Assembly (NCBI GenBank): GCA_044892505.1
Contig: CM097882.1
Coordinates: forward strand, 44,950,001 to 45,014,000
Length of the DNA stretch: 64,000 nucleotides
From: Schmidtea nova
Lineage: Eukaryota
Direction: 5' to 3'
The first letter of the stretch is position 1; every line of letters starts with the position of its first letter. Below, piece after piece: positions 42,918 to 64,000 of this stretch. The notes under the pieces are model-generated. The model had not been told where the DNA came from. It saw only the letters and a program-made list of their open reading frames with translations, and did not search any database. Made by a program: the position numbers and the translations under genes.

Positions 42918-42935
42918 TGGGGGCTCAGCCGGGAT
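42918..42935 (+). promoter_or_regulatory. Primer-binding site, tRNA-Pro type
   Basis: TGGGGGCTCAGCCGGGAT matches the canonical tRNA-Pro PBS TGGGGGCTCGTCCGGGAT at 16 of 18 positions. Confidence 0.8.
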
Positions 42936-43930: not shown

Positions 43931-44981
43931 TAGAAATAAAGTTTTGAACAAGTGCAGTTGTTATTGAAATTATGAGGGTTTAATAATGATTTGGTAAAAA
44001 TGACCTAAGTAATTATGAGCTACTTACGAGTAGTCCGTTAAGCACCCATTTGGGGGAACCAACTGATCAACTTACCCGAGATGTGTAGAAAGGGGCCAAT
44101 CGCGGATATTGGAAAGCTCTTGTGATGTGACTGATCACCACATCGTGCATCAGTGGACCAATGCGATCTTTTTATATATTTTGGTTGGGGTGAAAGGTAG
44201 GGATAACTCAATGAGGTTTAGGCGCGTGCAGAAAAACTATAAAAATAGGATGTTAGAACTGATCAGTAAAGAGAGAGAGAAAGCAATGAAATGAGTAAGA
44301 TGAATAACGAAACGTGGTATATGATGAAAGGCACGTAATCAGCTCGCATAAGGTAAAATCAAGTAGAAAGGTTGACGAATCAATAATAGAATAAAGGGGT
44401 ATAACAGATGAACCGAGTAAATGGAAAACTCGAGGTTAAAGGAAATCCTTGAAAGAAAGGAAATGATAAAAGGGGTCCTAGAGAGAAAGGATTTGCCCAT
44501 AGTTCTTGAAAGATAGAACTTAACGAAACGCGACAATAGATTCTCCGAAGAAGCATAAGTGACCACTGGGAGGAACATCCCGAAGCAACACATGCAACCA
44601 CTGAGAGATGATATTTCGAGTTTTCGTTCGTGAGCATAGGTCTCATAGTGAGCATAGGTCTCGTCATAAAAATAACATCCTAGTGAGCATAGGTCTCGTC
44701 ATAAAACACAACATCATAGTGAGCATAGTTCTCGTCCGTAAATATAAATCTCGTAGTGAGCAGAGTTCTCATTAATAAACACAAGACCAGCGAACATAGT
44801 CCTCATCAGTGAGCGTAGTTCTCATCAACAAACATAGTCACCACAGTGAGCTTAGTTCTCATCAGGAAACATAATTCCTGTAGTCACCATCAGTGAGCAT
44901 AGTTCTCATCGGGGAACATAGTCCCCGGAGCAAAGAGTTTCCATCAGTAAGCAAAACCCTCATAACAACCATGTTTTGCCA

Positions 44982-45304
44982 GTGAGCATAGTTCTCGTCA
45001 GTGAGCATAGTTCTCGTCAGTGAGCATAGTTCTCGTCAGTGAGCATAGTTCTCGTCAGTGAGCATAGTTCTCGTCAGTGAGCATAGTTCTCGTCAGTGAG
45101 CATAGTTCTCGTCAGTGAGCATAGTTCTCGTCAGTGAGCATAGTTCTCGTCAGTGAGCATAGTTCTCGTCAGTGAGCATAGTTCTCGTCAGTGAGCATAG
45201 TTCTCGTCAGGGAGCATAGTTCTCGTCATTGAGCATAGTTTTCGTCATTGAACATAGTTCTCGTTAGTGAGCATAGTTCTCAGCGGTGAGCATAGTTCTC
45301 GTTC
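44982..45304 (+). repeat. 19-bp tandem array (GTGAGCATAGTTCTCGTCA): 12 perfect and 5 diverged copies, with degenerate spaced copies at about 44627-44930
   Basis: Counted directly from the sequence. Confidence 0.95.
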
Positions 45305-45627
45305 GAAATAAAATATTGAGTAAAAGCCCACGAGAAAGACGACGAAGTGAGGCAGATGAGGACCAAATTAAGCACAAAACTATCCGGATAGTGAAGAGCA
45401 ATAAGCGATAATGGAGATGAATAAATGATAATGAGGATAAATGATGAATAGTGAAAATGAATAGCGAATAATGAGGAATAAGGGTTGAAAGAAACCGAGG
45501 TAATAATGAGAGAGTTGAAGGTGCGCACCTGGGTATTGATAAATGCGAGTAAAGCTGATTATGTGGCCTAATGATGTTAAAGTATGCATACAGAGGAGTA
45601 GTAAAGTAAAGTGAGTAAGTGAAGGGT

Positions 45628-46090: not shown

Positions 46091-46967
46091 GCCAACGAGA
46101 GATGTCAGTTGAATCAAAGGTGAGTAGAGATGAGAATTGAAATGAAGTAGTAAACGCAGTGTGAATAGGAAATAAAGCGAATAGTGGAGAAACAGAGTAG
46201 TCGACAGATAAGGGGAAATTTGAACTCAGAGCCAGAGAAGCCTGAGAAAAATAAAGGGAATAATAAGAGCGCTGAGCGACAAAGTAATTGGGGAACTGGG
46301 GAAAAGTAATTGGTGTATTTGATAAAGAATAGATAATTGATACGACTGCATAGATAATTTAAATAGACTTAAAATCAAGGGAAATGGGAAAAATGGGGAT
46401 CTTCATGAATTATGACTACACCCGTGAGAGGGACGAGAAACACGATAATGGGGACGTATCGTGTAAGTGATTATTTGTTTTAAGGAAACAAATCAATCAA
46501 GCAATTCAAAGCAATCTAGCAGTCAGAGCAATCAAAGGAAACAAATCAAAGAAGAAGCAAAGCAAAAGCGGAGTAGAAAATCAGTTGAGAATATAAGAAG
46601 TTGAGGAATAGACAAAATTGAGGGACGAGAAACAAGATCAGGTATAATACCAATCTTAACGGAAGCAGAAAGAAAAGCAGCAAAAAGGACAAGAACAGGT
46701 AACAAACCTAAGCAACAAAAGAACAAACAAGTAGAGATCAGCGACAATTCGAGTAATAAAGAGAATCAAGAAGAAACCCCAGAGGATCCAGAAGTACGAA
46801 ACGAAGTAGAAACGATAGACAGTGAACTAGTCAGGGAAAACAGAACAAGAAGCGAATCAAGAGATAACGAAACAGAGAGTAGTGAAGAAGAAGAGTCGAA
46901 TTCAGAAACAAGTGGTGAACTAGAAGCAAAGAAAACTAGTACAGTATTCCAAGACAGTGGAATCGGG

Positions 46968-49900
46968 ATGAGTGATCACAGAGAGGATCTAAGAGAAAAA
47001 TTCAAGGGCGAACCATTCAATGGAGACGCCAGTAGATTGGATACGTTTCTGAAGGAATTTGGCATATTTGTGGATATATGCGGATGGAGTGCAGAAACGT
47101 TGGCAAATCGAATCCCGCTATACTTGAAAGATAGCGCATTGGATCTGTATATCGAAAAGAGATCGGGAAGTAATCCACCCAGAACGTGGGAAGCGATCAA
47201 GGAGTTCTTCCAACAGACGTTTGGGATAAACAAAGTGCTGAATGAAGCATTCGATGAGTTTTCAGCAAGAAAACAAAGGAGAAACGAGTCAAATGCGGTG
47301 TACGCAAGTGAATTAAGAAAGTTGGCGAAACTGGCGTTCAACAGAGGAAGCCCAGTAGACGAAGAATTGATGACAGCGTTATTCGTACGAGGTCTCAGGA
47401 GACCTGACATCAGAACACAAGTGGGATGCAAAGGATGTAAAACAGTAGATGAAGCGTTGGAAGCAGCCAACCTATTCGAATTGCATATGGCAATGAACGA
47501 CATGAGAATTACGGCGGTAATGGGAAAAACGACAGAAGATGAAGAACAAGGAAAAAGAAATATGAATCAAAGTATTCCCCATTCGCAGAGATTGTTCAAA
47601 GAACCGCCAGCGAGGAAAAATAACGGATATATCACAGTAAACACGAATGGAGGAAATAGTTACAATGACAGGCAGAATAGGCAATGTCAGACGTGTGGGA
47701 AAAGCGGACATTGGCAACAAGATTGTTTTCAGAATGTAGCCTGCAAACTGTGTGGACAAAAAGGTCACTCAGAAAATCGATGTTATGGGAAAACGTGTTA
47801 CACATGTGGAAAAACCGGACACATGTCAAGAGACTGTAATCAACAGAGAAGTTGGTCAAACAGTGGAAATAGACCGAATTACGGGAATCGACCAAGCTAT
47901 GGGAATCAGGGTCAACAACGGAATAACCCAAACAGCAGTGCAAATGAAGCCAGTATGAAAGAAGCCAAGTTGAGACAGGAGGTATCCAGATTACACGAGA
48001 TAATCGAAAGCATGGCAAAAGGAAGCCAGCAAGCTGCTCAACCAAAGATAAACATGATCCAGTTAATAGAAGCTGAGGCCGAAAGGGAAAATAGAGAAAG
48101 TCAACAGAAACATAATCAAGAATGGGCTAGAGTACGACGAGAAGAAGAACAAGTCAGGCAACAACGATTACAACAGTTAAAAAAGGGAAATCCAAGGATC
48201 AACATGATGCGAGCAATGATGGAAGAGAAGCAGCAAGATGAGTCAGACGGGTTAGAAGTTAAAGAGAAAAGAAATGAAGAGCAGGAACAAGAAGAAGTGA
48301 ATCAGGAAGTAGAAACTGCAGAACAGAATAAAAAAGATGAAGAAGGGGAAAAAGAAACGGAAACAGAAAAAGAAACAGAAAAAGAAGCGAATCAAGAAGA
48401 GGAAGTAAGAATCAAACAAAAGGGAATGATAGTGATCATGCCGAATGATCATTGGTTTCGATTCAAATATGATGTAAAAGAAGAAGTGGGAAGATTGTTC
48501 AATAAAGTAAATAAGATGATTCCGGGAGTGACAAAACTGCCCAGAGAAGCATTCCTACAAACAGAGGATTTACCGGAAGTAAAGTTGAAGATGACTGATA
48601 TATGGGAAGATATGGGAGTAACAGAGACGAAAATGAACGTGATGATCATCAGAGAGGTGGAACCGGAGAAAATCCCACCACCAGTGAAACATCAAACCCG
48701 GATCAGTCGAATATTCAAGGGAAAAATAAGACGAAGACGGTTGGAAGAAATAGACGAATTGGAGAAAAGAATGGGAAAAGCTGAAATAACGAGAAACGAA
48801 AATGAACTAATACAGGAAGTTAGCAAAAACGAAACGAGACCAACCGCACATATTGGGATGCTGAGACACCCAAGACAGGAGTTGTCAGATGAAGAAGACG
48901 ACAGCGAAGTTAGCAATCTGGCAGGAGACATGCTAAAGGAACCGGAAAACGAGGACAAAAAGATGGAAGTAGTCGAGACAATAGAAACGATGTCAGTAAA
49001 GGAAGACGAAATTCAGAAGTTGATGGATAATGCGTTAGAAGTAATCCATAACGAGGAGTATATCGACAAGAAACGATACCGAAAGTTCATACGAGCAGTA
49101 TGGCAAATGAAGTATAAAGAGTGGTTACAAGAAAGAGAAGTGAGAGTAATACAGGAGTTCATAGAAAAGTTATTGAAAGAACCACTCAACGAATACGTAA
49201 TACAAATATGGATAAACGAGTGTTCACCGAGAATCTGGATAAGGAACCCAATGACGGATGGAATTTACAGATGGGTTGAGGACAGATTGGGAAGCTCGTA
49301 CAAAGACAAATTCATATATTCGGAAAACGGATTGGTGAGAAAAGGAACGCATATGATAGACACAGGCATCTGGCCAGGAGAAATAACGACGTTATCTATA
49401 TGCAACACCAAAAAGGAAGAGAATCTACAAGGAATCGTCAAAGAAGCGAATACGTGTTATGAGATGAGAATAAAACCTCAGTTGGTAGAGGCAAAGGAAA
49501 GAATCTCGGCAGAGAACTTGAATACGATGATAGAACAGATCATCCAACAAATCAAGAAACATCGAAAGGAATTGACGAAAAGCGAGTATGAGAATTTGAA
49601 ACAGTGTATCGAGAACATACGAGATACCAGTCAAACGAGACACTCAAATTTCAAAACGGATAGGTTAATCGCCAAGATGGGGAAAGAAATGTTTAAACGA
49701 GGAGAGGTATCAGATCTGAAGATTACCGTGAGATTGCCGAACGAAGAGATAAAACAAATTGAGGTAATACCAGATAGTAAAGTGGGAGAAATAGTAGATG
49801 TCATCAATGAGACGATATTACAACGAGAACGGGAAGAAGAATTCGAGGATGACATTGCGATAAAATACAAAGAACACCTACTGAATGAACGTGACGAAAG

Positions 49901-50645
49901 ACGAGCGTATAAAATCGGCATATGGGATAATTATCAGACAATAAATGTCATCAGAATGGATGATGTGCCGAGGGTAACACCAAGAGATGAGGAAAGGAAA
50001 AAGAAACGACAAGAGGACGTTATGCGTAAGTTGAGGCAAATAGTAGAAATCTATCGGAACTGGCAGATGAAGCCAGAATGGGAGACAATATTAGGAGAAG
50101 TGGATCTTAACAGACGACGATTGACGCCAGTAGAGAAACAATGGGATAACAAAGAGAAATGTTGGAAAGTGAAAAGAGGCGTGTATGAAGAAGATCCGGA
50201 AGGAGAAGACAGATACGAAACGAATACGAAACGGATATGTATGGTAACAAGGAGAATATTACCAACGGACTTAGACGGACCAGAAACTGCAGTAATATGG
50301 GCAGAATTGGAGAAACAGAAAACGAGTGAATTGATCGAGCTGTTGAGAGGAAATACTCGAGGAAAAAGACAAACAATAAAAGGCTTAGCAGGTTTTATAA
50401 TCTCAAATGGAGAAGACATAACGAACTTGAGAAAAGTAGCTAAAGCGATAGCAGAATACAAGAGAGTTAATGAGTGGTGTCCAGAGCAACTAGACGATGT
50501 AATAAAAAAGTGGAGAAACAAAGAGTTTGCGGAGGAAACGCCACAGAAAATACATTTGAGGATAATGTATCCGAATCAGAGAAAAGAAGAATTTTGGGTG
50601 ATGCTAACAGAAAAAGTGAAAAGTGTTAAAGAGAAACTGATGTAG
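46968..50645 (+). CDS. gag: Gag-containing polyprotein segment 1 (capsid-like domain, 3 CCHC zinc knuckles, acidic/coiled regions, ubiquitin-like domains)
   Basis: PFNGD...FLKEF...W....A..IPLYLKDSALD capsid-like N-terminus; three CX2CX4HX4C knuckles at 47685-47837; ends at a TAG that is in frame with the next ORF. Confidence 0.9.
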   Translation: MSDHREDLREKFKGEPFNGDASRLDTFLKEFGIFVDICGWSAETLANRIPLYLKDSALDLYIEKRSGSNPPRTWEAIKEFFQQTFGINKVLNEAFDEFSARKQRRNESNAVYASELRKLAKLAFNRGSPVDEELMTALFVRGLRRPDIRTQVGCKGCKTVDEALEAANLFELHMAMNDMRITAVMGKTTEDEEQGKRNMNQSIPHSQRLFKEPPARKNNGYITVNTNGGNSYNDRQNRQCQTCGKSGHWQQDCFQNVACKLCGQKGHSENRCYGKTCYTCGKTGHMSRDCNQQRSWSNSGNRPNYGNRPSYGNQGQQRNNPNSSANEASMKEAKLRQEVSRLHEIIESMAKGSQQAAQPKINMIQLIEAEAERENRESQQKHNQEWARVRREEEQVRQQRLQQLKKGNPRINMMRAMMEEKQQDESDGLEVKEKRNEEQEQEEVNQEVETAEQNKKDEEGEKETETEKETEKEANQEEEVRIKQKGMIVIMPNDHWFRFKYDVKEEVGRLFNKVNKMIPGVTKLPREAFLQTEDLPEVKLKMTDIWEDMGVTETKMNVMIIREVEPEKIPPPVKHQTRISRIFKGKIRRRRLEEIDELEKRMGKAEITRNENELIQEVSKNETRPTAHIGMLRHPRQELSDEEDDSEVSNLAGDMLKEPENEDKKMEVVETIETMSVKEDEIQKLMDNALEVIHNEEYIDKKRYRKFIRAVWQMKYKEWLQEREVRVIQEFIEKLLKEPLNEYVIQIWINECSPRIWIRNPMTDGIYRWVEDRLGSSYKDKFIYSENGLVRKGTHMIDTGIWPGEITTLSICNTKKEENLQGIVKEANTCYEMRIKPQLVEAKERISAENLNTMIEQIIQQIKKHRKELTKSEYENLKQCIENIRDTSQTRHSNFKTDRLIAKMGKEMFKRGEVSDLKITVRLPNEEIKQIEVIPDSKVGEIVDVINETILQREREEEFEDDIAIKYKEHLLNERDERRAYKIGIWDNYQTINVIRMDDVPRVTPRDEERKKKRQEDVMRKLRQIVEIYRNWQMKPEWETILGEVDLNRRRLTPVEKQWDNKEKCWKVKRGVYEEDPEGEDRYETNTKRICMVTRRILPTDLDGPETAVIWAELEKQKTSELIELLRGNTRGKRQTIKGLAGFIISNGEDITNLRKVAKAIAEYKRVNEWCPEQLDDVIKKWRNKEFAEETPQKIHLRIMYPNQRKEEFWVMLTEKVKSVKEKLM

Positions 50646-52445
50646 GAACTACCATTCCACCTGCAACATCAAGGACGATCGTTGGATAATAATTTAGAAA
50701 TCTGGCTGACACCAGTACAATTGGATTTAATGAATACGCTAACAGTGGCACAGATAGTGGGTCAACCACTAAAGTTTAAAGAGGAAAAGAAAGCGAAAGG
50801 AAGCATGAGTACACCAAGTCCGATGAAGTCAACAATGACCCCAGGAACAAGTTCAGGACAAGCAAGGACAACACCAATAAAAACGAGAGAGAGAACACCG
50901 CCAGAAGCGTATGACGTCGATGAGATACTAACAGACAGTGACGAAGCGATAGAAGAATTAACGAAACTGACTCAAAAACCAACGGCGAACATTTTTGACA
51001 GAATAATAGAGATGCCAATAACGTCACCAGCAGAAATCGACGATCAAGGAGTGGAACAGGAGGTAGTCATAGAAATGGTAAACGATTCGGAAGATGAACA
51101 AGAACAACCACAGTTTACTCAAGAAATGGAAAGATCGTTAGAACAACGAGCAAACGAAGGAAGAGATGTTACAGAGGAAACAGGAAGAGCAACGAGATTC
51201 GTAGAAACCGGAACTGGAATGGAAAAACGACCAAGAGGGAGACCAAAGATAGATCCAGCAACAGCAATTCCAAAGACAAGAGAAGAAAGGAGACAAGAGC
51301 AATGGGAGATTTGCTTGAAGAAACTAGACAAAATCGCAGAAATCAGAGGAAAAGAGGAGAATCAAGTCTGCCAAGGAGAAGAATGGCTCACCAAAACGAT
51401 AATGGATGTATTAGCGATAATTGACCCAGAATTAAAGAATCTGTGGCGGATAAACGAACCCAGTACAAAGGCAAGGATGCTACACAACGCGATAGCACCG
51501 ATTATGCCAGAATTAATTAAAGCGAAAACAAAATCGAATCATCTAGATTGGCAAGGAACCACGATGTTGATAAAAAGGCTACTTAATGGAGCAGAAACAG
51601 ACAGCAAATATCTAGTGGCAATCTCGTATACGATATACAATTTGTTAACGCTAAGCCGAGGAAGTCCGAAGTCAAGTCCGATGGGAAGACATATTAAAAA
51701 TACGGCGATGATTATCGAGAAAGAAATTGAACCATATATCCTCAGGAAAGGAGGATGGGAAAAGTTCATAAAAGAGAACCAGACAAAAGAAGGTTCAAAC
51801 GTGATGAGAAAGAAACTCGAAGGAGTATTGAGGGAAATGGAGAATAGACAAACGATGCAAGGAAACGGAAGATCGACGTTGAATCTAAACTCGATAATCA
51901 TGATGATGCTAGTATGGTTGTTAAGCACAGAGGGTGTAACAACGTTCGAAGTATTTGATTGTGATCAAATGAAGTTAGGAGAAAAGTACTCATTGAGAGG
52001 TACGGAGCAATGCAAAGATGCAACTCCAGTAGAGTTGAGAGAGATCAAAAAGGAACAATGGTACCACGTATATCAAGAAGCAGAACTAATAAAGACAATG
52101 GTGAATGAATGCAAGGTACAGAAGACGAGATTCGCATTCTATTGTGGGAGAGGACATTATTCAGCAATTGTCATGCCAGGAACGGAAAGAGAACCAATCG
52201 TGTTGCAAGGGGAAGACTGCGAAGCATTATTTAAACATGGAGAAGTAACAACGAGAGATAAAATCAAGATAAGAGGAAAGCCAGGAATGATGTTACAGCA
52301 GACGTATTATGTAGCAGGACGAATTACGGGAGGAGAAGGGTATTGTCAAGGAGAAACCTACCCAATATTTGGAGTTACCTGCAACCAACTTAGTGGTAAT
52401 GGATACGTACATAGTCGAACTGAAAAGCTACGAAGCATTCTTTGA
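50646..52445 (+). CDS. Polyprotein segment 2: Bcl-2-like domain, signal peptide and N-terminal part of a chuvirus-type glycoprotein
   Basis: Open in the gag frame directly after the TAG. BH2-like IEPYILRKGGWEKFIK at 51726-51773; hydrophobic SIIMMMLVWLLSTEG at about 51891-51935; then FEVFDC..C..CKVQKTRFAFYCG. Confidence 0.8.
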   Translation, partial: ELPFHLQHQGRSLDNNLEIWLTPVQLDLMNTLTVAQIVGQPLKFKEEKKAKGSMSTPSPMKSTMTPGTSSGQARTTPIKTRERTPPEAYDVDEILTDSDEAIEELTKLTQKPTANIFDRIIEMPITSPAEIDDQGVEQEVVIEMVNDSEDEQEQPQFTQEMERSLEQRANEGRDVTEETGRATRFVETGTGMEKRPRGRPKIDPATAIPKTREERRQEQWEICLKKLDKIAEIRGKEENQVCQGEEWLTKTIMDVLAIIDPELKNLWRINEPSTKARMLHNAIAPIMPELIKAKTKSNHLDWQGTTMLIKRLLNGAETDSKYLVAISYTIYNLLTLSRGSPKSSPMGRHIKNTAMIIEKEIEPYILRKGGWEKFIKENQTKEGSNVMRKKLEGVLREMENRQTMQGNGRSTLNLNSIIMMMLVWLLSTEGVTTFEVFDCDQMKLGEKYSLRGTEQCKDATPVELREIKKEQWYHVYQEAELIKTMVNECKVQKTRFAFYCGRGHYSAIVMPGTEREPIVLQGEDCEALFKHGEVTTRDKIKIRGKPGMMLQQTYYVAGRITGGEGYCQGETYPIFGVTCNQLSGNGYVHSRTEKLRSIL

Positions 52446-55400
52446 ACCAACAACAGGAGAAATGAAAACGTTATCCATGTGTAAGATTGACAGAAGCATG
52501 TGTCAAACGGGAATGTCAACATTGGTATACAAACCAAAAGTGAACGAGTGTCAATTACAACTGCTACAAGGAGCAAAGTTCGACGAAATTCAAGGAAAAA
52601 CTTTCCAAGAAGAGGACGATGATGACAAAGCTAGAGCAAAACATCTCAAGGAAGCTTTAGAAAATAAAAGACAATTGAGACCGGATCATAGAGAGAAACG
52701 GATAGAAATGAGAACCACACCAACAGTGTTGATAACCACAAATCAGGATGTGGGCATGAGATTCATAAAAGGGAAAGCCACCCTTAAGTGCAGTACAACA
52801 GTATACGAAACAAACTACCCAGGAATATACGTGTCAAAGCAAGAATTGCCGAATGCGAAACCCAAGATCGACACAATGGATATCAAGCTACACTTGTATG
52901 TGAATAATAAAATGGATTTCTTATTCCATAGAGGACAAGCCTCATTGCAAAAAGTGTACTATGATCTGATAAACAACGATTGTATACTGAACCGGGAAAT
53001 ATTGAAGACAAAGTTGGCCGTAGCAATTACGAATCCAGATAGCGCGATGCCATTATTACCACTAAGAGAAGGACATTTCGGAAGAGTGGTCGGAGAAGCA
53101 ATGTATGTATACATTTGCGAAAAGACACACGCATCGCTAGCAGCAACAACGCAGTTGAAACCTGGACAATGTACAAACGAGTTAGAAGTCCATTATAAAG
53201 GAAAAGTACGATACGTTCAACCGGTGACGAGAATCATCAATCCACCAGGGTTTGAACCAAATCCATTCAACTGTAGTAACGCGTACGGACCGCTTTATCA
53301 GAAGCCAGATGGCAAATGGGTCATGTTCCCAGGAAGAACTGAAGTATTAGCACCAAGAGAATTTGAGCTAATGCAGTTGTCAAAGGATAGACAGTTCAGT
53401 GACGTAGATGTCTCAAACAACGGAATCTATAGTCCAAAAGATCTGGAAGCAGCAAGACAGAATATACTATTCCCGGCAAGAAGAGAAGCATTACTGTCAA
53501 ATATCGTAACGATAACGGGAGGAACGAATTATCGAGAAGGACCGAATTACGAACTGCTGTTGTCACCGGCACATTTCAAGAAAGCCACAGAAAATATGAT
53601 GAAGGCAATGTGGGGAAGATTCCTGATATTCGGACAAATGATGGCTGGAATACTGGGAGTGATATTAATAATACAAATCGTCAGAGTAATACTAACGCAA
53701 ATGTTAGCGTGTTTCGATATCTACAAGAGAGAGAAGAAAGTGAATTGGAAAATGGTAGTAGGGTTTTTACCATTCCTTGCGAAAACGATGGTGTTACACG
53801 GACATTCAAAAGATATACATCGAATAAAAAGATTGTTGAAGATACTTGCAAAAATGAAAGGAACAAACGAAGATGTCGGAAGGAAATTCAAAAAGATAAT
53901 GCAAGACGAGCAAGCAAGACGACAACTGAAGAAGGAAAGGAAAGGATTATGGGAAAGAGTGAGAGGATATCGAACACAAGATGATTCAAGTAATGATGAC
54001 GATGATGATGACGATCGAGGAGGACAAGCGAATATAAACCAGATTCCCCAGTATGCCGAAAAGAGTGCAGTTGAGAATTGGAGATACAGTGCTCCACCCC
54101 AGTCGATGTATAACAAACCGATATACAAAGCGAAGCCGAATATGATGCAGATGATGCCGATGACAAGTATATACCCGATAATTCCAGAAGGATGCAAAGT
54201 AAAACGAGGTAAAAGCGTAGACTCGTTGGAAGACACGCACACGATAGCAGTTATGTCCACAAATATGGGACCGATTTTAACAACAACCATAGAAATAAAC
54301 AGAAAAGAAATCGAAGCAATGATCGATACAGGCGCGAATATTTCGGCAATCGACATTAATTATATACCAGAGAAAAATCAAGGAGAAATCGAGAAGACGA
54401 ATGTACATGTAATCGCGTGCAGTCAAGAGACAGTAGAAGTAGCCGGAAGATGGTTTGTAAAAATTAAGCATCGAGGTGCAGAGATCAACACGTACATCGC
54501 TGTAATACCATCGCTGAGTGTACCATGTATTATTGGAACTGACCTGATGCCAGACCTGTTCAAGGAAATCGTAATTGATCTAGGAGCAATGAAGCTAAAA
54601 GACAGAACAGGAAAAATCTGCAGAATGAAAGTTAAAGTGGCAAGTGCGGAACAAATAGTAGTGCCAGCGAGGCACGAATTGATGTGCTACGTCAAGATCG
54701 ATTCGACAATAAAAGGAGATATGGTATTCGAACCAAGTAAGAAGTTCGAAGCAAAGAAAGAATTACCAATGGCAAGAGAATTGGTCACGATAAACCAAGA
54801 AGGAGAAATACCGATCAATCTGGTGAACTTCGACGAAGAGGACAAGATAATATACGAGAATGAGAGATTGGGTAAATTGACACCCATGTCCGAAATCGAA
54901 ATACCAGACAAGAACGAGAAAAGCAAAGACGAATTACCATGGACAATCGACAGTGTGTTGTTAGACGAACGACAAAAAGAACAGTTACAGAAACTGTTGA
55001 TGGAATATAAAGATATATTCGCAGCATCAGATCTGGATTTAGGAACATGTGACGTAACATTGCACACGATACCGTTGACGGACGAAACGCCAATCGCATT
55101 ACGACCATACAAACTGGCAGAAGCTCAAAAAGCAGTGGCAGAAGAAGAAGTACAAAAGATGTTAGATGCAGAGGTCATCGAACCTAGTTGCTCACCCTGG
55201 CAATTCCCAGTGGTGATGGTGAAAAAGAAGGATGGAACTCAGAGATTCTGTATCGATTACAGACGATTGAACGCAGTTACAAAAAGAGATACGTACCCAC
55301 TGCCAGACATAAACGAAATGTTGTTGACGCTACAAGGAGCAGCCTATTTCACGTCACTGGATTTAAAGAGCGGATATTGGCAGATCAAAATGAAAGACGA

Positions 55401-58400
55401 AGATAAAGAGAAGACAGCATTTACAATCGGACGAGATCTGTACCAATTCAAGAAAATGCCGTTTGGGTTAACAAACGCGCCAGCATCATTCCAGAGATGC
55501 ATGAATTTCGTAACACATGGCATAAAACAATGCATGGTGTACATCGACGATCTATTGATCTACTCCGCAACATTCGAGGATCACTTACAAGACATCAGAA
55601 ATGTGTTCGTGAAATTGAGACAGTGGAAACTGAAATTAAAGCCGTCAAAGTGCGATTGGGCAAAAGAAAAAGTGACATTCTTAGGTCACATTGTATCGGC
55701 AAAAGGAAAAGAACCAGATCCAAGGAATATCGAGAAAGTTAAAGAATGTCCACCACCCAAGACAGTGACTCAAATACAAGAATTTTTGGGATTGTGTGGA
55801 TATTATCGAAAGTTTATCAAGGACTACGCAGGAATATCAAAGCCAATGCAAGAATTGGTAAGACAAGATGTGTCGTTTGTATGGGGAGGAGAACAGCAAG
55901 CAGCATTTGAAACATTACGAGATAAGCTGATTACAGCACCAATACTGGTCCATCCAGATTTTAAGAAGCCATTTCTGTTGGCAACAGATGCAAGTGGATA
56001 CGCAGCAGGAGCAGTACTAGGCCAATTTGATGAAGAAGGCAAAGAGAGAGTAATCGGATATTATAGTCGAACGTTCAGGAAACATGAAAAGAATTACTCA
56101 GTCACGGAAAGAGAAGCCTATGCGATAATATTGGCAATCAAGCATTTCAAGTACCTATTGTGGGGTCATGAAATATATATCACGACGGATCATCAACCAT
56201 TGGTATGGTTAGGCCAACATAAAGAATCATCAAGTAGATTGATGCGTTGGGCGATGCAGTTGCAAGAATACTCGCCATTCATAAAGTTTAAGGCAGGAAA
56301 AGCAAATGCAAACGCAGATTGCATGTCAAGGTTTACATTTCCAGAATTGGTGAACCTAAATGCTCTAAAAATATGTGCATTAATAGCGGAAGATTTGGAT
56401 TTCAGCGAACTAAGGAAAGATCAACTCGAAGATGAGGAGTTGGGATTGATCAGCAAGTATCTGAAAGAAAGGGAAATGGAAATATTCGGCAAGAACCAAA
56501 CGTTGTGCGAACATATGCAGAAATATCAACATAGATATGTGATGGAAAAAGGATGGTTATTGATACAAGATGGAGAACGAAGATTAATGTGCTTACCTGC
56601 GAATAGACGAAAGGAAATCATGACTCAATATCACGACGGAAAATTAGGCGGACATATGTCAGCGAAAAAGACAATCGGGAGATTGAGACAAAAGTATTTT
56701 TGGCCAACCATGGAAGATGATGTGAAAGAATGGATAAAGAACTGCTTAACCTGTGCGACAAGAAAGAACGTCGGAACAAAGTGGAAAACACCACTAAAAC
56801 CTATGCCAATACCTGCAGAACCTATGGCGACGATAGCAATGGATGTAGTTGGACCATTGCCGGAAAGTTTAAAAGGAAATCAGTATATATTAGTAGTCAC
56901 GGACTATCTAACAAAGTTCCCAGAAGCATTCGCAATGCCAGATCAAAAAGCAAAAACAGTCGCGAGAATATTGGTGGAAGAAATATGCTGCAGATACGGA
57001 ACACCCAAGAAAATCCTAACGGATCAAGGAACAAATTTCATGAGTGAAATATTAGACGAAGTTACGAATTACTTCCGAATTGCGAAACTACGAACATCCC
57101 CATACCATCCACAAACGAACGGTCAAACAGAAAGATTCAATGGGACATTAATACGCATGTTGTCGAATTACGTCAGTAAACATCAGACTGACTGGGATGA
57201 ATATATAAACCTGTGTTTAATGGCATACAGAATGTCAATACATGCGGCAACAAAGCTAAGTCCATTTCAACTGATGTACGGAAGAGATTGCAACTTACCG
57301 ATCGATTTAGAATACCAACCACCATTATCACAGTACATGGAGGTTGACGATTACGTTACAAAGTTCAAAGAAAGAATGCAAGAAATCTGGAAAACAGCGG
57401 AACTGAACATCAAGTTCTATCAAGAGAGTTACAAGGATCTACATGATCAGAAAAAGAATGTGAAAGCACATGATTTAAAAGTTGGAGATTGGGTGATAAT
57501 TGAGACACCAGAGATAATACCCGGTACGGTCAAGAAACTCCAACGACCAGGCAAAGGGCCATATGAAATAACAACAGTAAATGAAAATAATGTGCGAGTA
57601 CGATTGGTGAACAATCCATTGGTAAGACCAATATACGTGAATGCATGTCGATGCAGGAAAATACCAAAGACAGCAACTGTATTACCGGAAAAACGGGTGA
57701 TGACAAGATCACAGACGGCGAGAATCAGTATGTTGCGAGTACAACAAAAGCCGCAAACAAGTCTAGAAGACAACCGAAGGGAGATAATAGACATCAAAGA
57801 ACTGGCAAAGAAAACCAGAGAAATTATACCAGAATGGAAATGGTGGTTCGATTTCAATATACTGTCAGAAGTTCGAAAGAATGTAATGGAGTATGCGAAG
57901 GATAGAACAGCGCATCCAATAACAAGAACGTTACTAGAAGAAATCCCTCAAACATTGAACCTACAGGATAAAGACGGTAACACCGCGTTGCACAATGCAA
58001 TCAAGCACGGTGGAAACGAGAAAGTGAAAGAGATTGTGGAGATGATACTTGAAGGTGGAGGAGAAATTGACAAAGTGAATTGGGAAGGAATCACTCCACT
58101 TATGATGATGACGATTCATGGAAGAAACGACGAGATAATCAAGTTATTCGGAAACACCAGATCGAATTGGATGGCAAAAGATAAAGAAGGACGAACATTC
58201 CTGAATCATGCAATTGATAGAGCGAATCACCGAATACTAAAGTATATTACGGAAAATGCCACGTGGGAAATCGATGAACTAACTAGAGGATCGATCATGA
58301 AACAAGCAATCGGGGTAAAGAACAGTAAAACCTGGAGAATACTGCTAAAGTGGAAACGACCAGAAGGAGATTCGTGGGTCGTAAATTGTAATGAAGTATT

Positions 58401-61400
58401 CACAAGGGGAGAAAATGCGTTACTGAAACATTTACTAGAGGTAACATACGATCCAAAAACACTTGCAGTGTTAATAGCGAGAGATACGCTACGGGTTAGC
58501 GAGAACCCAAGAGAATACAAGCTGGAAGACAGAAAGAAAGAATTATTCGGATTAATCAAGAGATGGTGTGATAAACAATGGAATCCGGATATGAGCTTCG
58601 AACATTTCTATGACATCCAAAAGCAGCACAAAGAAATAAGCAAGAGATATAAAGAGCTGGTGGAAGCATTGAAATATGGACAGTTCTTCAGACAAGCAGT
58701 GTATCAAGACCAACGAATGAAACAGATGCAAACGCGAATAAGAAGCAAAGCAGTGTTGTTCAATGCAAAAGCGGAATATCAAGAGAGATTAGACGCAATA
58801 GTAGCGAAAGCGCAAGAAAGATTATCGGAGTTCAAAGAGAATAAAAACTCATTGGAGATACTAGGAGCAATTACAGAGAAAGTACACAGATACGCACAAG
58901 GAGATTATAACGAGAGTGACATAGAAACGATCAAAAATCAAATGCCAGTGGCATTCCTATTATCAAAGGATGGGAGATTGCCGATACACTGGGCATTACG
59001 TCGAAAGAAAGAAAACGAAGTGCTGGAAATAACGAAAGCGATGGTCAAGTGCGAAGCAGACATGAATACGGTTGACGATAACGGAGATACAATCATGATA
59101 ATCGCAGCAAGAAAGAAGACGAAGTTGAAAGTGCTAAATGAATTATACGAAGCAGGAGCAAAAATCGAAGGGAAAAATGGAAAGAATAATTCCATCATAG
59201 ATATCGCAATACAGTGGAACAACTTCGAGATGATCAAGTTCATAAAGTCCATCAAGAGACATGAGGACATAGAATACCTGGCAAATAACGTAAAGAATTT
59301 CAGTCTAACAGTAATGATACACGACGTAGAGAAAACAAGAGCATTACTAACATGGGTGAATCCGATCACCAAGGAACCAGTGTTCAAGATCAATGACCAT
59401 ATGGAACAGAATCAGAATTGGTGTATCAGAAGCGCGTTATTAAGACACAAAAAGCCAGAGATAGTAGAAGAATTCTTGAAGAGAAGAGATTTGAAATTTA
59501 CGAACAACTCAAAGGAACAGGAACGAATAGGAAGATGGAAAGACTTGTTCAGAAAATATGTGAATGAATGGACAAATGCCAAGGAAACAATCAAGCAAAG
59601 TAGACTAAAAGACATAGAACCATCCAAGGATATGGAAATACGTGAATTCGAGTCTAGCACACTCGCGGTTCAAGCGTATGAAAGATTGATTGAAGAAATT
59701 AATGTCGAGGACGACATTTTCAAAGGACCAGGGGGTGGTTACAGAGACTTCGACGACAAAAGTAACAACGAAAAGAACAACGAAGATAACGACAACAAAA
59801 GAACGGAGAATAATGAAAAAGAAAGACAAGAAGAACCGAAGCCAACGAGAAATGACAAGAAAGGAGAAGCCGAAGAACGAGAAAACAACGGAACAAAAGA
59901 CGAACATGCGAACTATGGAAAACGAACAGGAAGTCTACTTTTGAGACCGGAAATGTTGTGTATTGCGATATTGATAACAATCATCGGACAAGGCGAAGCC
60001 AAGAAACAATACGTCACGCTGGAAATAATCAGAGGAAACGAAGTATACGAAAGAATATGCTGGAAAGAAAACCTGAAGAAAAACGATACGCTGAAATGTA
60101 TATTGTCAGACTTGAAGCGAGACGTCATCCAAATCAAAGGATTGGAGAAAGAAAAGTCATACATAATATGCGCAATAAAGCAGAGAGGAGAACCAAAAGC
60201 ACCTCAAGTAACTGCATGTCAATTATACAAAGCAACAGAAGCGCTGAATATACAGAAATGGATTGGAAAAAGAAGCGAAGAGACAACGAGAAGAACAGAA
60301 GTGGAATCGGAAAAAGGGAAGAATCAAACGGAAGCAGAAGAGGGAATCAGAAACCGAACAGAGAAAGAAAGAATAACCAAAAATCCAGCGGGCAAATTAA
60401 CATTCCAACCAGAATTGATATGTGTAGCATTAATATTAATCCTCATTAAGAGAATCATGGAGGACATAGATATCAGCGTGATGACGTTAGTAAATATCCA
60501 AGATCAACGAACAACGAACGGAAGATGTTGGGGACGAAACAATGAGGTAATTGGAATCAGCGAAACAAGAGAAAGTCGAGAGGCAGAGACAAATGAGGAA
60601 ATCGAGATAACTGAAATGGAAACAGAGAAAACATGTGAACTATGCCTCATGGAAAAAGCAGCAAACGGAAACAGACCAGGAACAAGCGAGTGTAAAGTGT
60701 TCCAAGCAAAGGAGATAATTGAGTTCCCAAAAAGAAAGAAACAAGATCAAGAAACGATTGCGAATGAAGTAGTAACAGTAGAGATAAAAAACATTGGTCG
60801 GAGAACAATTGGGATGTGTTGGAGAAAATACATCGGAGTACCGACCAACAACATAATACCGCAATGCAGAACGAGAGAACGAGGAATCCCGTTTCAACTA
60901 AATGGATTCGAAGTCGGACAAGCATATGAAATTTGTGTAATCCGAAGAATAAGAGAAATAATACAAAGAAGCCTGGAGTGCAAACTGTACAAGACGCCAG
61001 AGCAAATTAACGGAACAAGAACGATTGAAATGGGAGGAAGTCGACAGAGGAAAAGAAAGTCAAAAAGAACCACGACAACAAACAGTCAAGGAACTCAACA
61101 GGCAACAACAGAAAGGACGACAATAGAAAACGAACCGGAATCAACAACGCTGATAATATGGAAGATCCATAAAAAGGTCCTAGAAATCTGTTGGACACTA
61201 ATGCCGAACAGTATGGGAAAGTCCCCACGAAACTGTCAAAAGACATCAAATGATAAAGGAGAAATAATCGAGGTAGAAATGAGGAAGTTGAAAACAAACG
61301 CAGAATACGAAGTGTGTGCAATCGAAGAAGTGGATGCACAAGGAAATCCACAAGAAAGGTGCGAAACCTATTACACGCCGATAAAGAGGAGAATCAAAAA

Positions 61401-61866
61401 GTTAGAATTCCGAGAATTGAGTCAGAAGAGAGAACAAAACGAGAAGGAAGAAACAATACCAAATCAACAAGAAAAATGGGAACCAGAGAAAGTGATCGAA
61501 GAAGTCAGACGGAGACAACAACAATACGAACAATGGGAAGCAGAATGGAAAGGTCAATATGGCGTGATGATAAACCAAAGTGAAACTCCGAAGATGAGCA
61601 TTGGGAAAACAATAATGGGATTAATCAGCATGGGAGTATTCATAGGGTGTATACCACTGATAACGATCATGATAGTATGTTGGAGATATGGCATGAGAAA
61701 TAAGACCATAGCAGTAAAATGGCCGGACGTAAAGGTCACGAATTACAACATAAAACTACCAAAAGAAGTACGAGAAGAACTGAAAAGACGATCAAAACAC
61801 GAAGAGATGTGGGTACAGATCGAGGACGAGGAACTGTTCGAAGGAAAACCAGTGATAGTTGTATAG
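52369..61866 (+). CDS. pol: Polyprotein segment 3 (3165 aa): rest of glycoprotein with TM, protease, RT, RNase H, integrase, ankyrin repeats, 4 FN3-like repeats, TM
   Basis: DTGA at 54325; YIDD at 55540; TDAS RNase H near 55985; HHCC finger 56629-56757; D-D-E motifs MDVVGP, TDQGTNF, GQTERFN; DKDGNTALHNA ankyrin near 57970; TM segments at about 53614-53715 and 61612-61683. Confidence 0.95.
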   Translation: MELPATNLVVMDTYIVELKSYEAFFEPTTGEMKTLSMCKIDRSMCQTGMSTLVYKPKVNECQLQLLQGAKFDEIQGKTFQEEDDDDKARAKHLKEALENKRQLRPDHREKRIEMRTTPTVLITTNQDVGMRFIKGKATLKCSTTVYETNYPGIYVSKQELPNAKPKIDTMDIKLHLYVNNKMDFLFHRGQASLQKVYYDLINNDCILNREILKTKLAVAITNPDSAMPLLPLREGHFGRVVGEAMYVYICEKTHASLAATTQLKPGQCTNELEVHYKGKVRYVQPVTRIINPPGFEPNPFNCSNAYGPLYQKPDGKWVMFPGRTEVLAPREFELMQLSKDRQFSDVDVSNNGIYSPKDLEAARQNILFPARREALLSNIVTITGGTNYREGPNYELLLSPAHFKKATENMMKAMWGRFLIFGQMMAGILGVILIIQIVRVILTQMLACFDIYKREKKVNWKMVVGFLPFLAKTMVLHGHSKDIHRIKRLLKILAKMKGTNEDVGRKFKKIMQDEQARRQLKKERKGLWERVRGYRTQDDSSNDDDDDDDRGGQANINQIPQYAEKSAVENWRYSAPPQSMYNKPIYKAKPNMMQMMPMTSIYPIIPEGCKVKRGKSVDSLEDTHTIAVMSTNMGPILTTTIEINRKEIEAMIDTGANISAIDINYIPEKNQGEIEKTNVHVIACSQETVEVAGRWFVKIKHRGAEINTYIAVIPSLSVPCIIGTDLMPDLFKEIVIDLGAMKLKDRTGKICRMKVKVASAEQIVVPARHELMCYVKIDSTIKGDMVFEPSKKFEAKKELPMARELVTINQEGEIPINLVNFDEEDKIIYENERLGKLTPMSEIEIPDKNEKSKDELPWTIDSVLLDERQKEQLQKLLMEYKDIFAASDLDLGTCDVTLHTIPLTDETPIALRPYKLAEAQKAVAEEEVQKMLDAEVIEPSCSPWQFPVVMVKKKDGTQRFCIDYRRLNAVTKRDTYPLPDINEMLLTLQGAAYFTSLDLKSGYWQIKMKDEDKEKTAFTIGRDLYQFKKMPFGLTNAPASFQRCMNFVTHGIKQCMVYIDDLLIYSATFEDHLQDIRNVFVKLRQWKLKLKPSKCDWAKEKVTFLGHIVSAKGKEPDPRNIEKVKECPPPKTVTQIQEFLGLCGYYRKFIKDYAGISKPMQELVRQDVSFVWGGEQQAAFETLRDKLITAPILVHPDFKKPFLLATDASGYAAGAVLGQFDEEGKERVIGYYSRTFRKHEKNYSVTEREAYAIILAIKHFKYLLWGHEIYITTDHQPLVWLGQHKESSSRLMRWAMQLQEYSPFIKFKAGKANANADCMSRFTFPELVNLNALKICALIAEDLDFSELRKDQLEDEELGLISKYLKEREMEIFGKNQTLCEHMQKYQHRYVMEKGWLLIQDGERRLMCLPANRRKEIMTQYHDGKLGGHMSAKKTIGRLRQKYFWPTMEDDVKEWIKNCLTCATRKNVGTKWKTPLKPMPIPAEPMATIAMDVVGPLPESLKGNQYILVVTDYLTKFPEAFAMPDQKAKTVARILVEEICCRYGTPKKILTDQGTNFMSEILDEVTNYFRIAKLRTSPYHPQTNGQTERFNGTLIRMLSNYVSKHQTDWDEYINLCLMAYRMSIHAATKLSPFQLMYGRDCNLPIDLEYQPPLSQYMEVDDYVTKFKERMQEIWKTAELNIKFYQESYKDLHDQKKNVKAHDLKVGDWVIIETPEIIPGTVKKLQRPGKGPYEITTVNENNVRVRLVNNPLVRPIYVNACRCRKIPKTATVLPEKRVMTRSQTARISMLRVQQKPQTSLEDNRREIIDIKELAKKTREIIPEWKWWFDFNILSEVRKNVMEYAKDRTAHPITRTLLEEIPQTLNLQDKDGNTALHNAIKHGGNEKVKEIVEMILEGGGEIDKVNWEGITPLMMMTIHGRNDEIIKLFGNTRSNWMAKDKEGRTFLNHAIDRANHRILKYITENATWEIDELTRGSIMKQAIGVKNSKTWRILLKWKRPEGDSWVVNCNEVFTRGENALLKHLLEVTYDPKTLAVLIARDTLRVSENPREYKLEDRKKELFGLIKRWCDKQWNPDMSFEHFYDIQKQHKEISKRYKELVEALKYGQFFRQAVYQDQRMKQMQTRIRSKAVLFNAKAEYQERLDAIVAKAQERLSEFKENKNSLEILGAITEKVHRYAQGDYNESDIETIKNQMPVAFLLSKDGRLPIHWALRRKKENEVLEITKAMVKCEADMNTVDDNGDTIMIIAARKKTKLKVLNELYEAGAKIEGKNGKNNSIIDIAIQWNNFEMIKFIKSIKRHEDIEYLANNVKNFSLTVMIHDVEKTRALLTWVNPITKEPVFKINDHMEQNQNWCIRSALLRHKKPEIVEEFLKRRDLKFTNNSKEQERIGRWKDLFRKYVNEWTNAKETIKQSRLKDIEPSKDMEIREFESSTLAVQAYERLIEEINVEDDIFKGPGGGYRDFDDKSNNEKNNEDNDNKRTENNEKERQEEPKPTRNDKKGEAEERENNGTKDEHANYGKRTGSLLLRPEMLCIAILITIIGQGEAKKQYVTLEIIRGNEVYERICWKENLKKNDTLKCILSDLKRDVIQIKGLEKEKSYIICAIKQRGEPKAPQVTACQLYKATEALNIQKWIGKRSEETTRRTEVESEKGKNQTEAEEGIRNRTEKERITKNPAGKLTFQPELICVALILILIKRIMEDIDISVMTLVNIQDQRTTNGRCWGRNNEVIGISETRESREAETNEEIEITEMETEKTCELCLMEKAANGNRPGTSECKVFQAKEIIEFPKRKKQDQETIANEVVTVEIKNIGRRTIGMCWRKYIGVPTNNIIPQCRTRERGIPFQLNGFEVGQAYEICVIRRIREIIQRSLECKLYKTPEQINGTRTIEMGGSRQRKRKSKRTTTTNSQGTQQATTERTTIENEPESTTLIIWKIHKKVLEICWTLMPNSMGKSPRNCQKTSNDKGEIIEVEMRKLKTNAEYEVCAIEEVDAQGNPQERCETYYTPIKRRIKKLEFRELSQKREQNEKEETIPNQQEKWEPEKVIEEVRRRQQQYEQWEAEWKGQYGVMINQSETPKMSIGKTIMGLISMGVFIGCIPLITIMIVCWRYGMRNKTIAVKWPDVKVTNYNIKLPKEVREELKRRSKHEEMWVQIEDEELFEGKPVIVV

Positions 61867-61989: not shown

Positions 61990-62340
61990 ATGAACCAAGA
62001 AAATATCGAGATGTCAATGATGACAAGATGGAAAGTGCAATGTGACCTGCTAGCCAGAACAGTAAATGAATTACAGAGCCAGTTGACGGCCAAAACGCAA
62101 TTATTAACCGAGAGTTATAACTGTAATTTCGAAGCAATGAACAAAATCGAGATCCAACAAATACAGATAAACGAATTACAGAACGAGAACCGAACATTAA
62201 ATGAAGTGAACAACTGGCAAGCAGAGGAAATTGATCGATTAACGAGACATGAAGAGGAGGAGATACCGGATAGTTGGACGAGCTGGATTGTAAATGAAAT
62301 AGACGTGTATCCAGAGCCAGATTCAACTGAGGATGTATAG
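61990..62340 (+). CDS. 3' accessory ORF, 116 aa, coiled-coil with acidic Trp-containing tail, unknown function
   Basis: ATG-started ORF in the element's A-rich codon style; heptad pattern; CTAG acceptor 8 nt upstream; AATAAA at 62373. Confidence 0.65.
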   Translation: MNQENIEMSMMTRWKVQCDLLARTVNELQSQLTAKTQLLTESYNCNFEAMNKIEIQQIQINELQNENRTLNEVNNWQAEEIDRLTRHEEEEIPDSWTSWIVNEIDVYPEPDSTEDV

Positions 62341-62429
62341 TGAATAAGCGGAAAACTGTGTAAATACGTGTAAATAAAGAACCAGAAAAATCAAAAATAT
62401 GGGGAAATTGATGTAAATATTGTTGTAGA

Positions 62430-63842
62430 ATGAGAGCAGAAAGCGAAGCAGATTACCAAACCATCGAGATTCTAAGAAGAGAAAATCGACAGTGGGGAGT
62501 AAATGTGACGTGTGTAAAGTGTAAAAATCTACTGTTAAAACCGAGGCAAACGGAATGTGGATGCAGGATGTGAACCAAGTGTATATTGCAAATAATCAGT
62601 GAAAGTGAGACAAGAAAGTGTCCAGAGTGTGACGATAAACTACTGATCAACGAGACAAAACCAGATAAAGCAATACAAAAGGAGATCTGGAAGATAAAAA
62701 CAGAGTGTATAAACCAACCATGCGAATGGAAAGAACAAATAATCGAGCTAAGACAACATCTGGAGAAATGTGAAAACAAGAAAGCGATATGTGAAAAGTG
62801 TCAACAGACGATAACCATCAAGCAGTCGAAAAAGCACAAGGATGAGTGCAAAGCAGAGATAATAGAGTGTCAATACTGCGAACAAAGAGAGACGAGAGAA
62901 GTAATTGAAACAGAACATCTCAACGTAGCAGAAGAGAAAGTGTGTGGAAAATTCAGAGGAATTTGTCCAAGTAATTGCGGAGCCGGAGAAGAAGTGATGT
63001 TGAGAGAACATTGGGAACAATGCGAATCAAGACCAAGGAAGTGCGTATGGAGTAAACAAGGATGTTTAGTAAAGAAAACGAGCAAAGACATGAAAGAGCA
63101 TTTAGAAACAGAGACAGTACAACACGCAGAGATACTAACAGAAAATTTAAACGGAATGGAACAAACCATACAGAAGCTGGGAAAAGAAATCGAATCTCAG
63201 AGGATAATGACCGAGTTATTACTGGAAACGAGAGAACAATTCGAGCTCACCAGAGAAAAAATGATGGAGAAAATCAAAGTCATAGAGACATTGGTAAAAG
63301 AAGTAAACGTGCGACATCAAATGTGGATACGAGATACAGAGGATATCGAGAGTTTACCTGTTGCGCCATATGTATGGAAAATCAAGAACTTCAACGAAAA
63401 GTTCACAACAGCAAAAGCAGGAAGTCAAGTATTGGTAACAAGTCCACCATTTTATCTGTGGAAAAATGGATACAAAGTTCGAATGAGAATTTATCCAAAT
63501 GGAGATGGATCAGGAAAGGAAACGCATGTGTCATTATTCTTTGCGTTGTGTAAAGGGGGTTACGACGACATATTAGAATGGCCGCTAGAGACAAAGGCGA
63601 TAATGAGAGTGAAAAACTCGAGAGAAACGATTGTGAGAATATTCAAAATTGATGGTAAGCACGAAGCTTACAAAAGACCAACCACAGAATGTTCATTAGC
63701 GACTGGAGAACCAAAATTCATACCACACCAAACAATGTGGGAGATGTTGTACGACGACAACTTATATGTAGAGTTGGAGATCGAAAAGAAAACAAGTACA
63801 ACAGTGATGAACACGAAGTCAACGAAAGGATGGTTGGAGTAG
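62430..63842 (+). CDS. TRAF-family protein (RING - TRAF zinc fingers - coiled coil - MATH) with an in-frame TGA at 62571-62573
   Basis: From ATG 62430: CVKCKNLLLKPRQTECGCRM*TKC...CPEC RING, CxNxxCxW...LxxHLxxC zinc fingers, and MATH motifs YVWKIKNF, SPPFY..KNGYKVRMRIYPNGDGSGKETHVSLFF..KG.YD.IL.WP. Confidence 0.9.
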
Positions 63843-63931
63843 TCAGAGTGAACGACCCTGTAAATAAAGTGTAAAAATCGACGACAACAATAAACATATA
63901 GTATAACAAGTGTAAATTTGTAAATTACAGA

Positions 63932-64000
63932 ATGGAAAACGTAAACGAACATGTAATCGAAGATGAAACGAGAAACGAGATGTCAAACGAACAAGAAGCA
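63932..64000 (+). CDS. Further accessory ORF, truncated by the window end
   Basis: MENVNEHVIEDETRNEMSNEQEA..., open to the end, preceded by a TTACAG acceptor like the other accessory ORFs. Confidence 0.5.
   Translation, partial: MENVNEHVIEDETRNEMSNEQEA

What the first reader, a model, noticed from the sequence alone, without database searches (positions are those of the whole stretch)
62430..63842. Complete retroelement-borne TRAF whose RING has TGA exactly at a zinc-ligand Cys and Cys in place of His
The ORF track starts at 62586, but the frame opens at ATG 62430 and encodes CxxC...CGCRM*TKC...CPEC. The TGA (62571-62573) sits at the fifth ligand position. The likeliest cause is a TGC/TGT-to-TGA mutation in this copy; selenocysteine or readthrough, or a deliberate RING-less dominant-negative TRAF, are alternatives. 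A full-length TRAF on a retroelement would directly rewire TNFR/TLR signalling.
Basis: partly seen in the sequence, partly recalled or inferred. Interest (0 to 1): 0.7.

Follow-up and report, generated by a model that had tools for sequence, protein, structure and literature searches.

The report
Dead TRAF copy in giant retroelement
The odd stop codon is found in only this one copy of a giant flatworm-type jumping gene and is most likely a plain inactivating mutation; the other copies carry an intact, conserved cell-signalling gene (TRAF) whose flagged cysteine is shared with the host's own TRAF genes, so the stop itself is ordinary.

Summary
In detail: ATG 62430 opens a RING–zinc-finger–MATH TRAF frame with an in-frame TGA at 62571-73, on the fifth RING ligand column, and Cys where TRAF6 has His. 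Neither is special. The stop occurs in 1 of 30 fetched copies and 1 of 83 exact-context matches in the genome; this copy also has a private stop and frameshift in its polyprotein. No SECIS or readthrough structure was found. Cys-for-His is present in 14 of 15 host RING-TRAF loci (0 His). The gene lies inside a 29,444-bp Burro-type Ty3/gypsy element (identical 3,234-bp LTRs, 4-bp target duplication, env between gag and pol), about 2 kb before the 3' LTR. The family's TRAF is under purifying selection (dN/dS 0.09; RING 0.05), has a splice-acceptor-like site at its ATG, and its MATH groups with the MATH-only insert of a second element family (98/96), suggesting one old capture from the host. TRAF/MATH cargo of Burro elements is published; the full-length 3' accessory form is a variant that this scan already reported on other copies in this genome. 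'TNFR/TLR rewiring' is unsupported. Verdict: ordinary dead allele of a mildly interesting known cargo.

The parts
39678..42911 (+). 5' LTR, 3,234 bp, TG...CA, holds two ORFs (ATG 41131, 211 aa; ATG 41962, 187 aa); its 3' twin lies beyond the window at L031:3888-7121
   Evidence: 100% identical to the 3' LTR, 4-bp target-site duplication
42918..42935 (+). likely primer-binding site, 6 nt after the LTR; resemblance to a tRNA-Pro site is recalled, not tested
   Evidence: sequence
43472..43930 (+). accessory ORF, 152 aa, C-terminal C3HC4-type RING
   Evidence: Pfam zf-C3HC4_3 E 3e-9; start
44647..45359 (+). 19-nt tandem repeat array in the 5' leader
46605..61866 (+). gag-env-PR-RT-RH-IN-ankyrin polyprotein region (about 5,090 codons), broken in this copy by a stop at 50643-50645 and a frameshift in the env part (frames overlap at 52315-52445)
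   Evidence: 0 of 29 other copies share either break, 25 of 29 are open over the 2.5 kb tested
61990..62340 (+). accessory ORF, 116 aa, no family tested
62426..62428 (+). splice-acceptor-like TAG just before the TRAF ATG
   Evidence: YAG at -4..-2 in 28 of 30 copies; use not shown
62430..63842 (+). full-length TRAF accessory gene (RING, zinc fingers, likely coiled coil, MATH), broken in this copy
   Evidence: 28 of 30 copies fully open
62571..62573 (+). private in-frame TGA on the fifth RING ligand column
   Evidence: 1 of 30; 1 of 83
63863..63868 (+). AATAAA poly(A)-signal-like word about 20 nt after the TRAF stop
   Evidence: AATAAA within 45 nt of the stop in 30 of 30 copies; use not shown
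63932..64000 (+). start of a 386-aa charged, coil-like accessory ORF that runs past the window end (to L031:3092); a 174-aa ORF (L031:3167-3691) and the 3' LTR (L031:3888-7121) follow
   Evidence: no Pfam hit for either ORF

Best explanation
The TGA is present only in this one copy of a Burro-type giant retroelement and is most likely a plain nonsense mutation that would leave a 47-residue stub, while the family's intact TRAF, conserved across copies and likely captured once from the host, is predicted to act as a survival-signalling adaptor in the cells that carry the element. Shown: the stop is private; the copy has two more private breaks; the gene is internal to the element; purifying selection on all domains; Cys-for-His is the host state. 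Inferred: the breaks came with the last copying round or a defective parent moved by helper copies (LTRs still identical); the gene is expressed from its own spliced, polyadenylated message; the protein works through stress-kinase/anti-death signalling like host planarian TRAFs (about 0.5 for this last step).
For: Stop in 1 of 30 loci, 28 of 30 open, L020 has a different private stop; 1 of 83 exact-context matches genome-wide. Polyprotein stop and frameshift in 0 of 29 other copies. Pairwise dN/dS among 29 other copies 0.090; RING 0.053, zinc fingers 0.117, coil 0.068, MATH 0.094; private changes are closer to neutral (81 nonsyn + 2 stops vs 66 syn) than shared ones (40 vs 92). Host RING-TRAF loci: Cys 14 of 15, Ile 1, His 0; three outside hits with a RING (P0005, P0007, P0010) have His. 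MATH tree: element TRAF + second-family polyprotein MATH + P0006 one clade, 98/96. MATH/TRAF cargo, ankyrins, env between gag and pol described for Burro (PMC6431247, section 7 read whole). Host TRAF-like genes needed for cell survival (PMC7586133, passages); Burro1 carries an anti-apoptotic RING-BIR module (second-hand, PMC13465017 passages).
Against: Three breaks in about 16.7 kb of coding DNA is high against 0.74 expected from the other copies (P about 0.04), and 0 LTR differences is low against 4 expected (P 0.017): an assembly error at one or more sites cannot be excluded. Element branches in the trees are long and A-rich, and the host sister group is weakly supported (92/71; unresolved in the full-length tree). 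No function of the element TRAF was tested; the RING has Lys where TRAF6 has Ile at the E2-contact column and the MATH serine triad is changed (the roles of those residues are recalled).
Confidence: 0.85

Rival explanations
1. The TGA is a base-calling or assembly error and this copy's TRAF is open in the animal.
For: Identical LTRs (0 of 3,234) imply almost no time for mutation after insertion, yet the copy has three breaks.
Against: The frameshift is not in a long homopolymer (run 1-2); other copies also carry scattered private stops (L020, L045, L054, L057). Either way the stop has no special biology.
Confidence: 0.1
2. The TGA is read as selenocysteine or by programmed readthrough.
For: TGA falls on a zinc-ligand column, the position where a selenocysteine swap would be chemically plausible (general knowledge).
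Against: Recoding signals are kept across copies; this codon is in 1 of 83. No Rfam match at E<=5 in the 10 kb holding the gene and its 3' region. The 96-nt 3' spacer folds no better than shuffles (z 0.63) and the 127 nt after the stop neither (z 0.16).
Confidence: 0.01
3. The stop makes a RING-less dominant-negative TRAF by restart at a later ATG (next in-frame Met is residue 190) and this is kept on purpose.
For: A product from Met190 would keep the coil and MATH parts; TRAF1 naturally lacks a RING (PMC7586133); a second element family carries MATH without RING.
Against: Single copy; the RING is the most constrained part in the family; the copy has other ruinous breaks; no sign of spread. 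Incidental restart is possible but would not be selected.
Confidence: 0.03

Closest known systems
Burro1/GYPSM1 and Burro-2 to -4 giant gypsy-like LTR elements of Schmidtea mediterranea (as described in PMC6431247, section 7 read whole; Jurka 2007 and Grohme 2018 not seen)
   Same: About 30 kb, long LTRs, gag with CCHC knuckles, fusion glycoprotein in frame between gag and pol, ankyrin repeats, tandem repeats, MATH/TRAF cargo.
   Different: In Burro1 a MATH_TRAF_C domain is inside the polyprotein; here the polyprotein lacks it at that place and a full RING-zinc-finger-MATH TRAF is a separate 3' gene. BIR and BCL2 motifs were not found by Pfam (no HHpred-type test). The second family in G000 (L097/L098) has the Burro1-like layout.
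Burro-like element of Dugesia tigrina (PMC6431247)
   Same: Polyprotein of about 5,100 residues without MATH; MATH_TRAF_C in a separate accessory ORF.
   Different: That ORF is described as upstream, and RING/zinc fingers are not mentioned; here it is downstream of pol and full-length.
Planarian host TRAF-like genes, e.g. Smed-TRAF-2A/B (PMC7586133, PMC8807557, passages)
   Same: RING, zinc fingers, MATH; host loci in G000 share the Cys-for-His RING and about 27-33% identity.
   Different: Element-borne, multi-copy, A-rich coding strand; separate clade in the MATH tree; function untested.
Vertebrate TRAF2/3/5/6 (solved structures)
   Same: MATH best matches TRAF5/2/1/3 (E 1e-26 to 1e-24); RING and first zinc finger align to TRAF6 with one gap.
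   Different: All-Cys ligand set in intact copies instead of a His at ligand 4; serine triad of the TRAF2 groove changed.

Membership tests
Burro-type giant Ty3/gypsy element | about 30 kb with long LTRs and a target-site duplication | tested here: met
   29,444 bp, LTRs 3,234 bp, TG...CA, 4-bp duplication
Burro-type giant Ty3/gypsy element | gag, fusion glycoprotein, PR-RT-RH-IN in one frame, env between gag and pol | tested here: met
   Pfam order; 25 of 29 other copies open across the 2.5 kb that holds both breaks
Burro-type giant Ty3/gypsy element | ankyrin repeats and MATH/TRAF cargo | tested here: met
Burro-type giant Ty3/gypsy element | BIR and BCL2-like motifs | tested here: inconclusive
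   no Pfam hit; no profile-profile search run
Burro-type giant Ty3/gypsy element | RT clade shared with the published Burro1-4; dugesiid host | not tested
   no reference Burro sequence in hand; host inferred from anatomy and the TRAF expansion only
TRAF (RING-zinc finger-coil-MATH) | C-terminal TRAF-type MATH | tested here: met
   PF21355 E 4e-25; TRAF5/2 E 1e-26 to 1e-25
TRAF (RING-zinc finger-coil-MATH) | N-terminal RING and TRAF zinc fingers | tested here: met
   RING and finger ligand columns kept in 30 of 30 copies except the stop column, 29 of 30; broken in this copy
TRAF (RING-zinc finger-coil-MATH) | coiled coil and trimer; E3 or adaptor activity | not tested
   no predictor, fold or assay run
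C3HC4 RING | His at ligand 4 | tested here: not met
   Cys in 30 of 30 element copies and 14 of 15 host loci
Selenoprotein | TGA kept across copies | tested here: not met
   1 of 83
Selenoprotein | SECIS in the 3' region | tested here: not met
   no Rfam hit at E<=5; spacer z 0.63; SECISearch itself not available
Programmed stop readthrough | conserved stop with downstream structure | tested here: not met
   private stop; z 0.16

The most novel reading that the evidence does not exclude
Burro elements captured one full-length host TRAF long ago and still keep it under strong selection in two forms, a separately expressed RING-intact gene and a MATH-only piece of the polyprotein, using it to keep their host cells alive or to damp the host's RNA-sensing stress pathway; part of the reported planarian 'TRAF expansion' would then be element cargo.
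Probability: 0.45. Interest if true: 0.55.

Novelty: new variant of a known kind. Interest (0 to 1): 0.22.

Why it matters
The flagged stop does not matter: it is one dead allele. What remains is that a young, high-copy retroelement keeps a whole TRAF under purifying selection. If it is expressed and protects cells, it joins the Burro1 anti-death module as a second host-derived survival tool, and it warns that planarian TRAF counts and RNAi targets mix host genes with element cargo. The all-Cys RING looks like the normal TRAF form in this host, which I did not find described, but that is a small point.

Tried and rejected
Selenocysteine and readthrough: rejected. Element-specific RING variant: rejected. 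Gene outside the element: rejected. Programmed stop or frameshift in gag/env: rejected, both private. Expression: no RNA holder listed, so nothing is claimed. Contigs of four runs of one study could not confirm or exclude the stop allele: the other letter had full depth in X1-X3 and 1,987 of 2,002 in X4, but contigs drop rare variants. Searches of G000 for Rel-homology and TNFR_c6 domains were blank, with controls blank too, so they show nothing. The full-length tree did not resolve the host sister of the element TRAF (22 rows, many long branches). The homologue search gave only 7 hits at 23-31% identity. LTR dating worked for 8 of 10 copies tried; for L012 and L002 the fetched 5' stretch held no LTR. 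Host status of the TRAF loci was checked on 1.5-kb flanks for most and on 10-kb stretches for L065, L066, L072, L073: of 20 stretches only L073/L110 (257-bp LTR-end piece about 1 kb away) and L108 (RT-integrase next to the truncated L066 gene) touch element sequence. Grohme 2018 and Lee 2026 were not held, so their figures and supplements, which may show a full-length Burro TRAF, were not seen; the search listed nothing relevant. No structure or complex was predicted.

Full report
Observation. The frame opens at ATG 62430 and ends at TAG 63840-63842; codon 48 (62571-62573) is TGA. Read with X at that break it is a TRAF: weak TRAF3_RING, zf-TRAF, and MATH at E 1e-26, with best solved matches TRAF5, 2, 1 and 3 for MATH and TRAF6 for the RING. 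The TRAF6 alignment places the stop on the fifth ligand column and Cys45 on the His column.

The element. Composition changes at about 40 kb from 13-34% GC to about 40% GC with strong A skew. With the neighbouring stretch of G000, the element runs from 39678 to 69121 in window-extended coordinates, 29,444 bp, with two 3,234-bp LTRs that are 100% identical, TG...CA ends and a 4-bp target duplication. Inside are a RING ORF, a 19-nt repeat array, a region of about 5,090 codons with gag, a Monjiviricetes-type fusion glycoprotein, PR, RT, RNase H, integrase and ankyrins, and four 3' accessory ORFs, of which TRAF is the second. This matches the published description of planarian Burro elements, including env in frame between gag and pol and MATH/TRAF cargo (PMC6431247, section 7 read whole). 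The host is therefore likely a dugesiid planarian; this is inferred from anatomy, and no tree with published Burro sequences was made.

The stop is private. A DNA search scored 40 of 643 candidates, all full length at 95-100% identity; 30 came back as loci. The window copy is the only one with a stop at codon 48; 28 of 30 are open end to end and L020 has another private stop. An exact 20-base pattern with the stop matches once in the genome, against 83 matches when that base is left free; copies with other differences in those 20 bases are not counted. The same copy has a stop at 50643-50645 and a frameshift in the env part; none of 29 other copies shares either, and 25 of 29 are open over the 2.5 kb tested. 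There is no Rfam match at E up to 5 in the 10 kb holding the gene and its 3' region, and neither the 3' spacer nor the sequence after the stop folds better than shuffles (z 0.63 and 0.16). Selenocysteine and readthrough are rejected.

One oddity remains. Eight other copies (of 10 tried) have LTR pairs 99.6-99.97% identical, so the family is young; the window copy has no LTR difference (4 expected, P 0.017) yet three breaks (0.74 expected, P 0.04). The simplest reading is that the breaks came with the copying step or from a defective parent moved by helper copies; an assembly error is the alternative. Contigs of four public runs could not decide it. Either way the stop has no special biology.

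Cys for His is the host state. Family searches of G000 gave many TRAF loci outside the element (33 of 153 matches came back as loci, plus chosen extra stretches). Of 15 distinct loci with a RING (identical duplicates L068, L069 dropped), 14 have Cys at ligand 4, one has Ile, none has His; the unnamed metagenome protein P0006 also has Cys, while the three other hits with an alignable RING (P0005, P0007, P0010) have His. These loci do not match the element's internal DNA, apart from an LTR-end fragment near L073 and an RT-integrase remnant beside the truncated L066 (flanks were short for most). So the variant was most likely inherited with the captured gene. Searches listed no paper describing it, judged from listings and from passages of two papers.

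The family's TRAF is maintained. Mean pairwise dN/dS is 0.090 among the 29 other copies; by part, over all 30, RING 0.053, zinc fingers 0.117, coil 0.068, MATH 0.094. All 34 Cys/His columns are kept in at least 29 of 30 copies. Private changes are nearer neutral than shared ones, as expected if selection acts on replicating lineages and single copies decay. A YAG lies just before the ATG in 28 of 30 copies and AATAAA follows the stop in 30 of 30; all seven accessory ORFs examined have a YAG 1-7 nt before their ATG (no chance control run). This suggests separate spliced messages; it is untested here.

Origin. A second element family in G000 (L097/L098; 60% identical over the long pol-containing alignment) has MATH alone inside its polyprotein, at a place where the window's polyprotein has none, as in Burro1. 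In a MATH tree of 36 rows the two element forms and P0006 make one clade (98/96; 96 in the quick tree), and P0006 joins the element TRAF in the full-length tree too (98/96). That fits one old capture, later kept whole in one family and cut to MATH in another. Long, A-rich branches and a weak host sister group (92/71) limit this.

Function. Host planarian TRAF-like genes are needed for cell survival (PMC7586133, passages; PMC8807557, passages), and Burro1 is reported to protect stem cells through a RING-BIR module (second-hand from PMC13465017, passages; the original was not held). A survival-adaptor role for the intact element TRAF is the most likely one, but untested.

Prior notes and verdict. 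The scan had already reported this cargo, the Cys-for-His point and the acceptor pattern on other copies in this genome; I reached them before that look-up and count the notes as no extra support. The flagged feature is an ordinary dead allele. The full-length 3' TRAF is a new variant of a cargo already in print. Interest 0.22.

Noticed in passing
window 39678-42911 vs L113-L132: LTRs differ far more between copies (71-96% to the window LTR, often in mosaic blocks) than the internal region does (about 96%), while each copy's own two LTRs are 99.6-100% alike: several LTR types ride on one internal sequence.
   Followed up: partly
window 41131, 41962, 43472, 61990, 62430, 63932 and L031:3167: All seven accessory ORFs have a YAG 1-7 nt before the ATG, several followed by AATAAA: operon-like or alternatively spliced cassette; already noted by the scan on other copies.
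   Followed up: partly
G000:C2 about 405-455 Mb (most of L067-L096): A dense cluster of host TRAF/MATH genes, some in tandem at 4-5 kb spacing and split into RING and MATH frames: likely the host's own expansion by tandem duplication, separate from the element.
   Followed up: partly
L097:3794-10000 and L098:1-7911: Second Burro-like family with a 4,706-codon open polyprotein that holds MATH without RING.
   Followed up: partly
window 58900-61866 (polyprotein tail): After the ankyrins, the tail has repeated hydrophobic segments and repeated Cys-bearing blocks that look like secreted or membrane modules; no Pfam hit.
   Followed up: no
window 43472-43930: Stand-alone 152-aa ORF with a C-terminal RING (zf-C3HC4_3) but no BIR hit; may relate to the Burro1 RING-BIR module.
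   Followed up: no
L108 / L066: A host TRAF cut short inside MATH lies next to an RT-integrase remnant on the other strand, likely an insertion into the gene.
   Followed up: no
L033:2331-2861: A frame with WD40-like repeats about 15 kb past the element, likely a host exon; label from the look of the sequence only.
   Followed up: no
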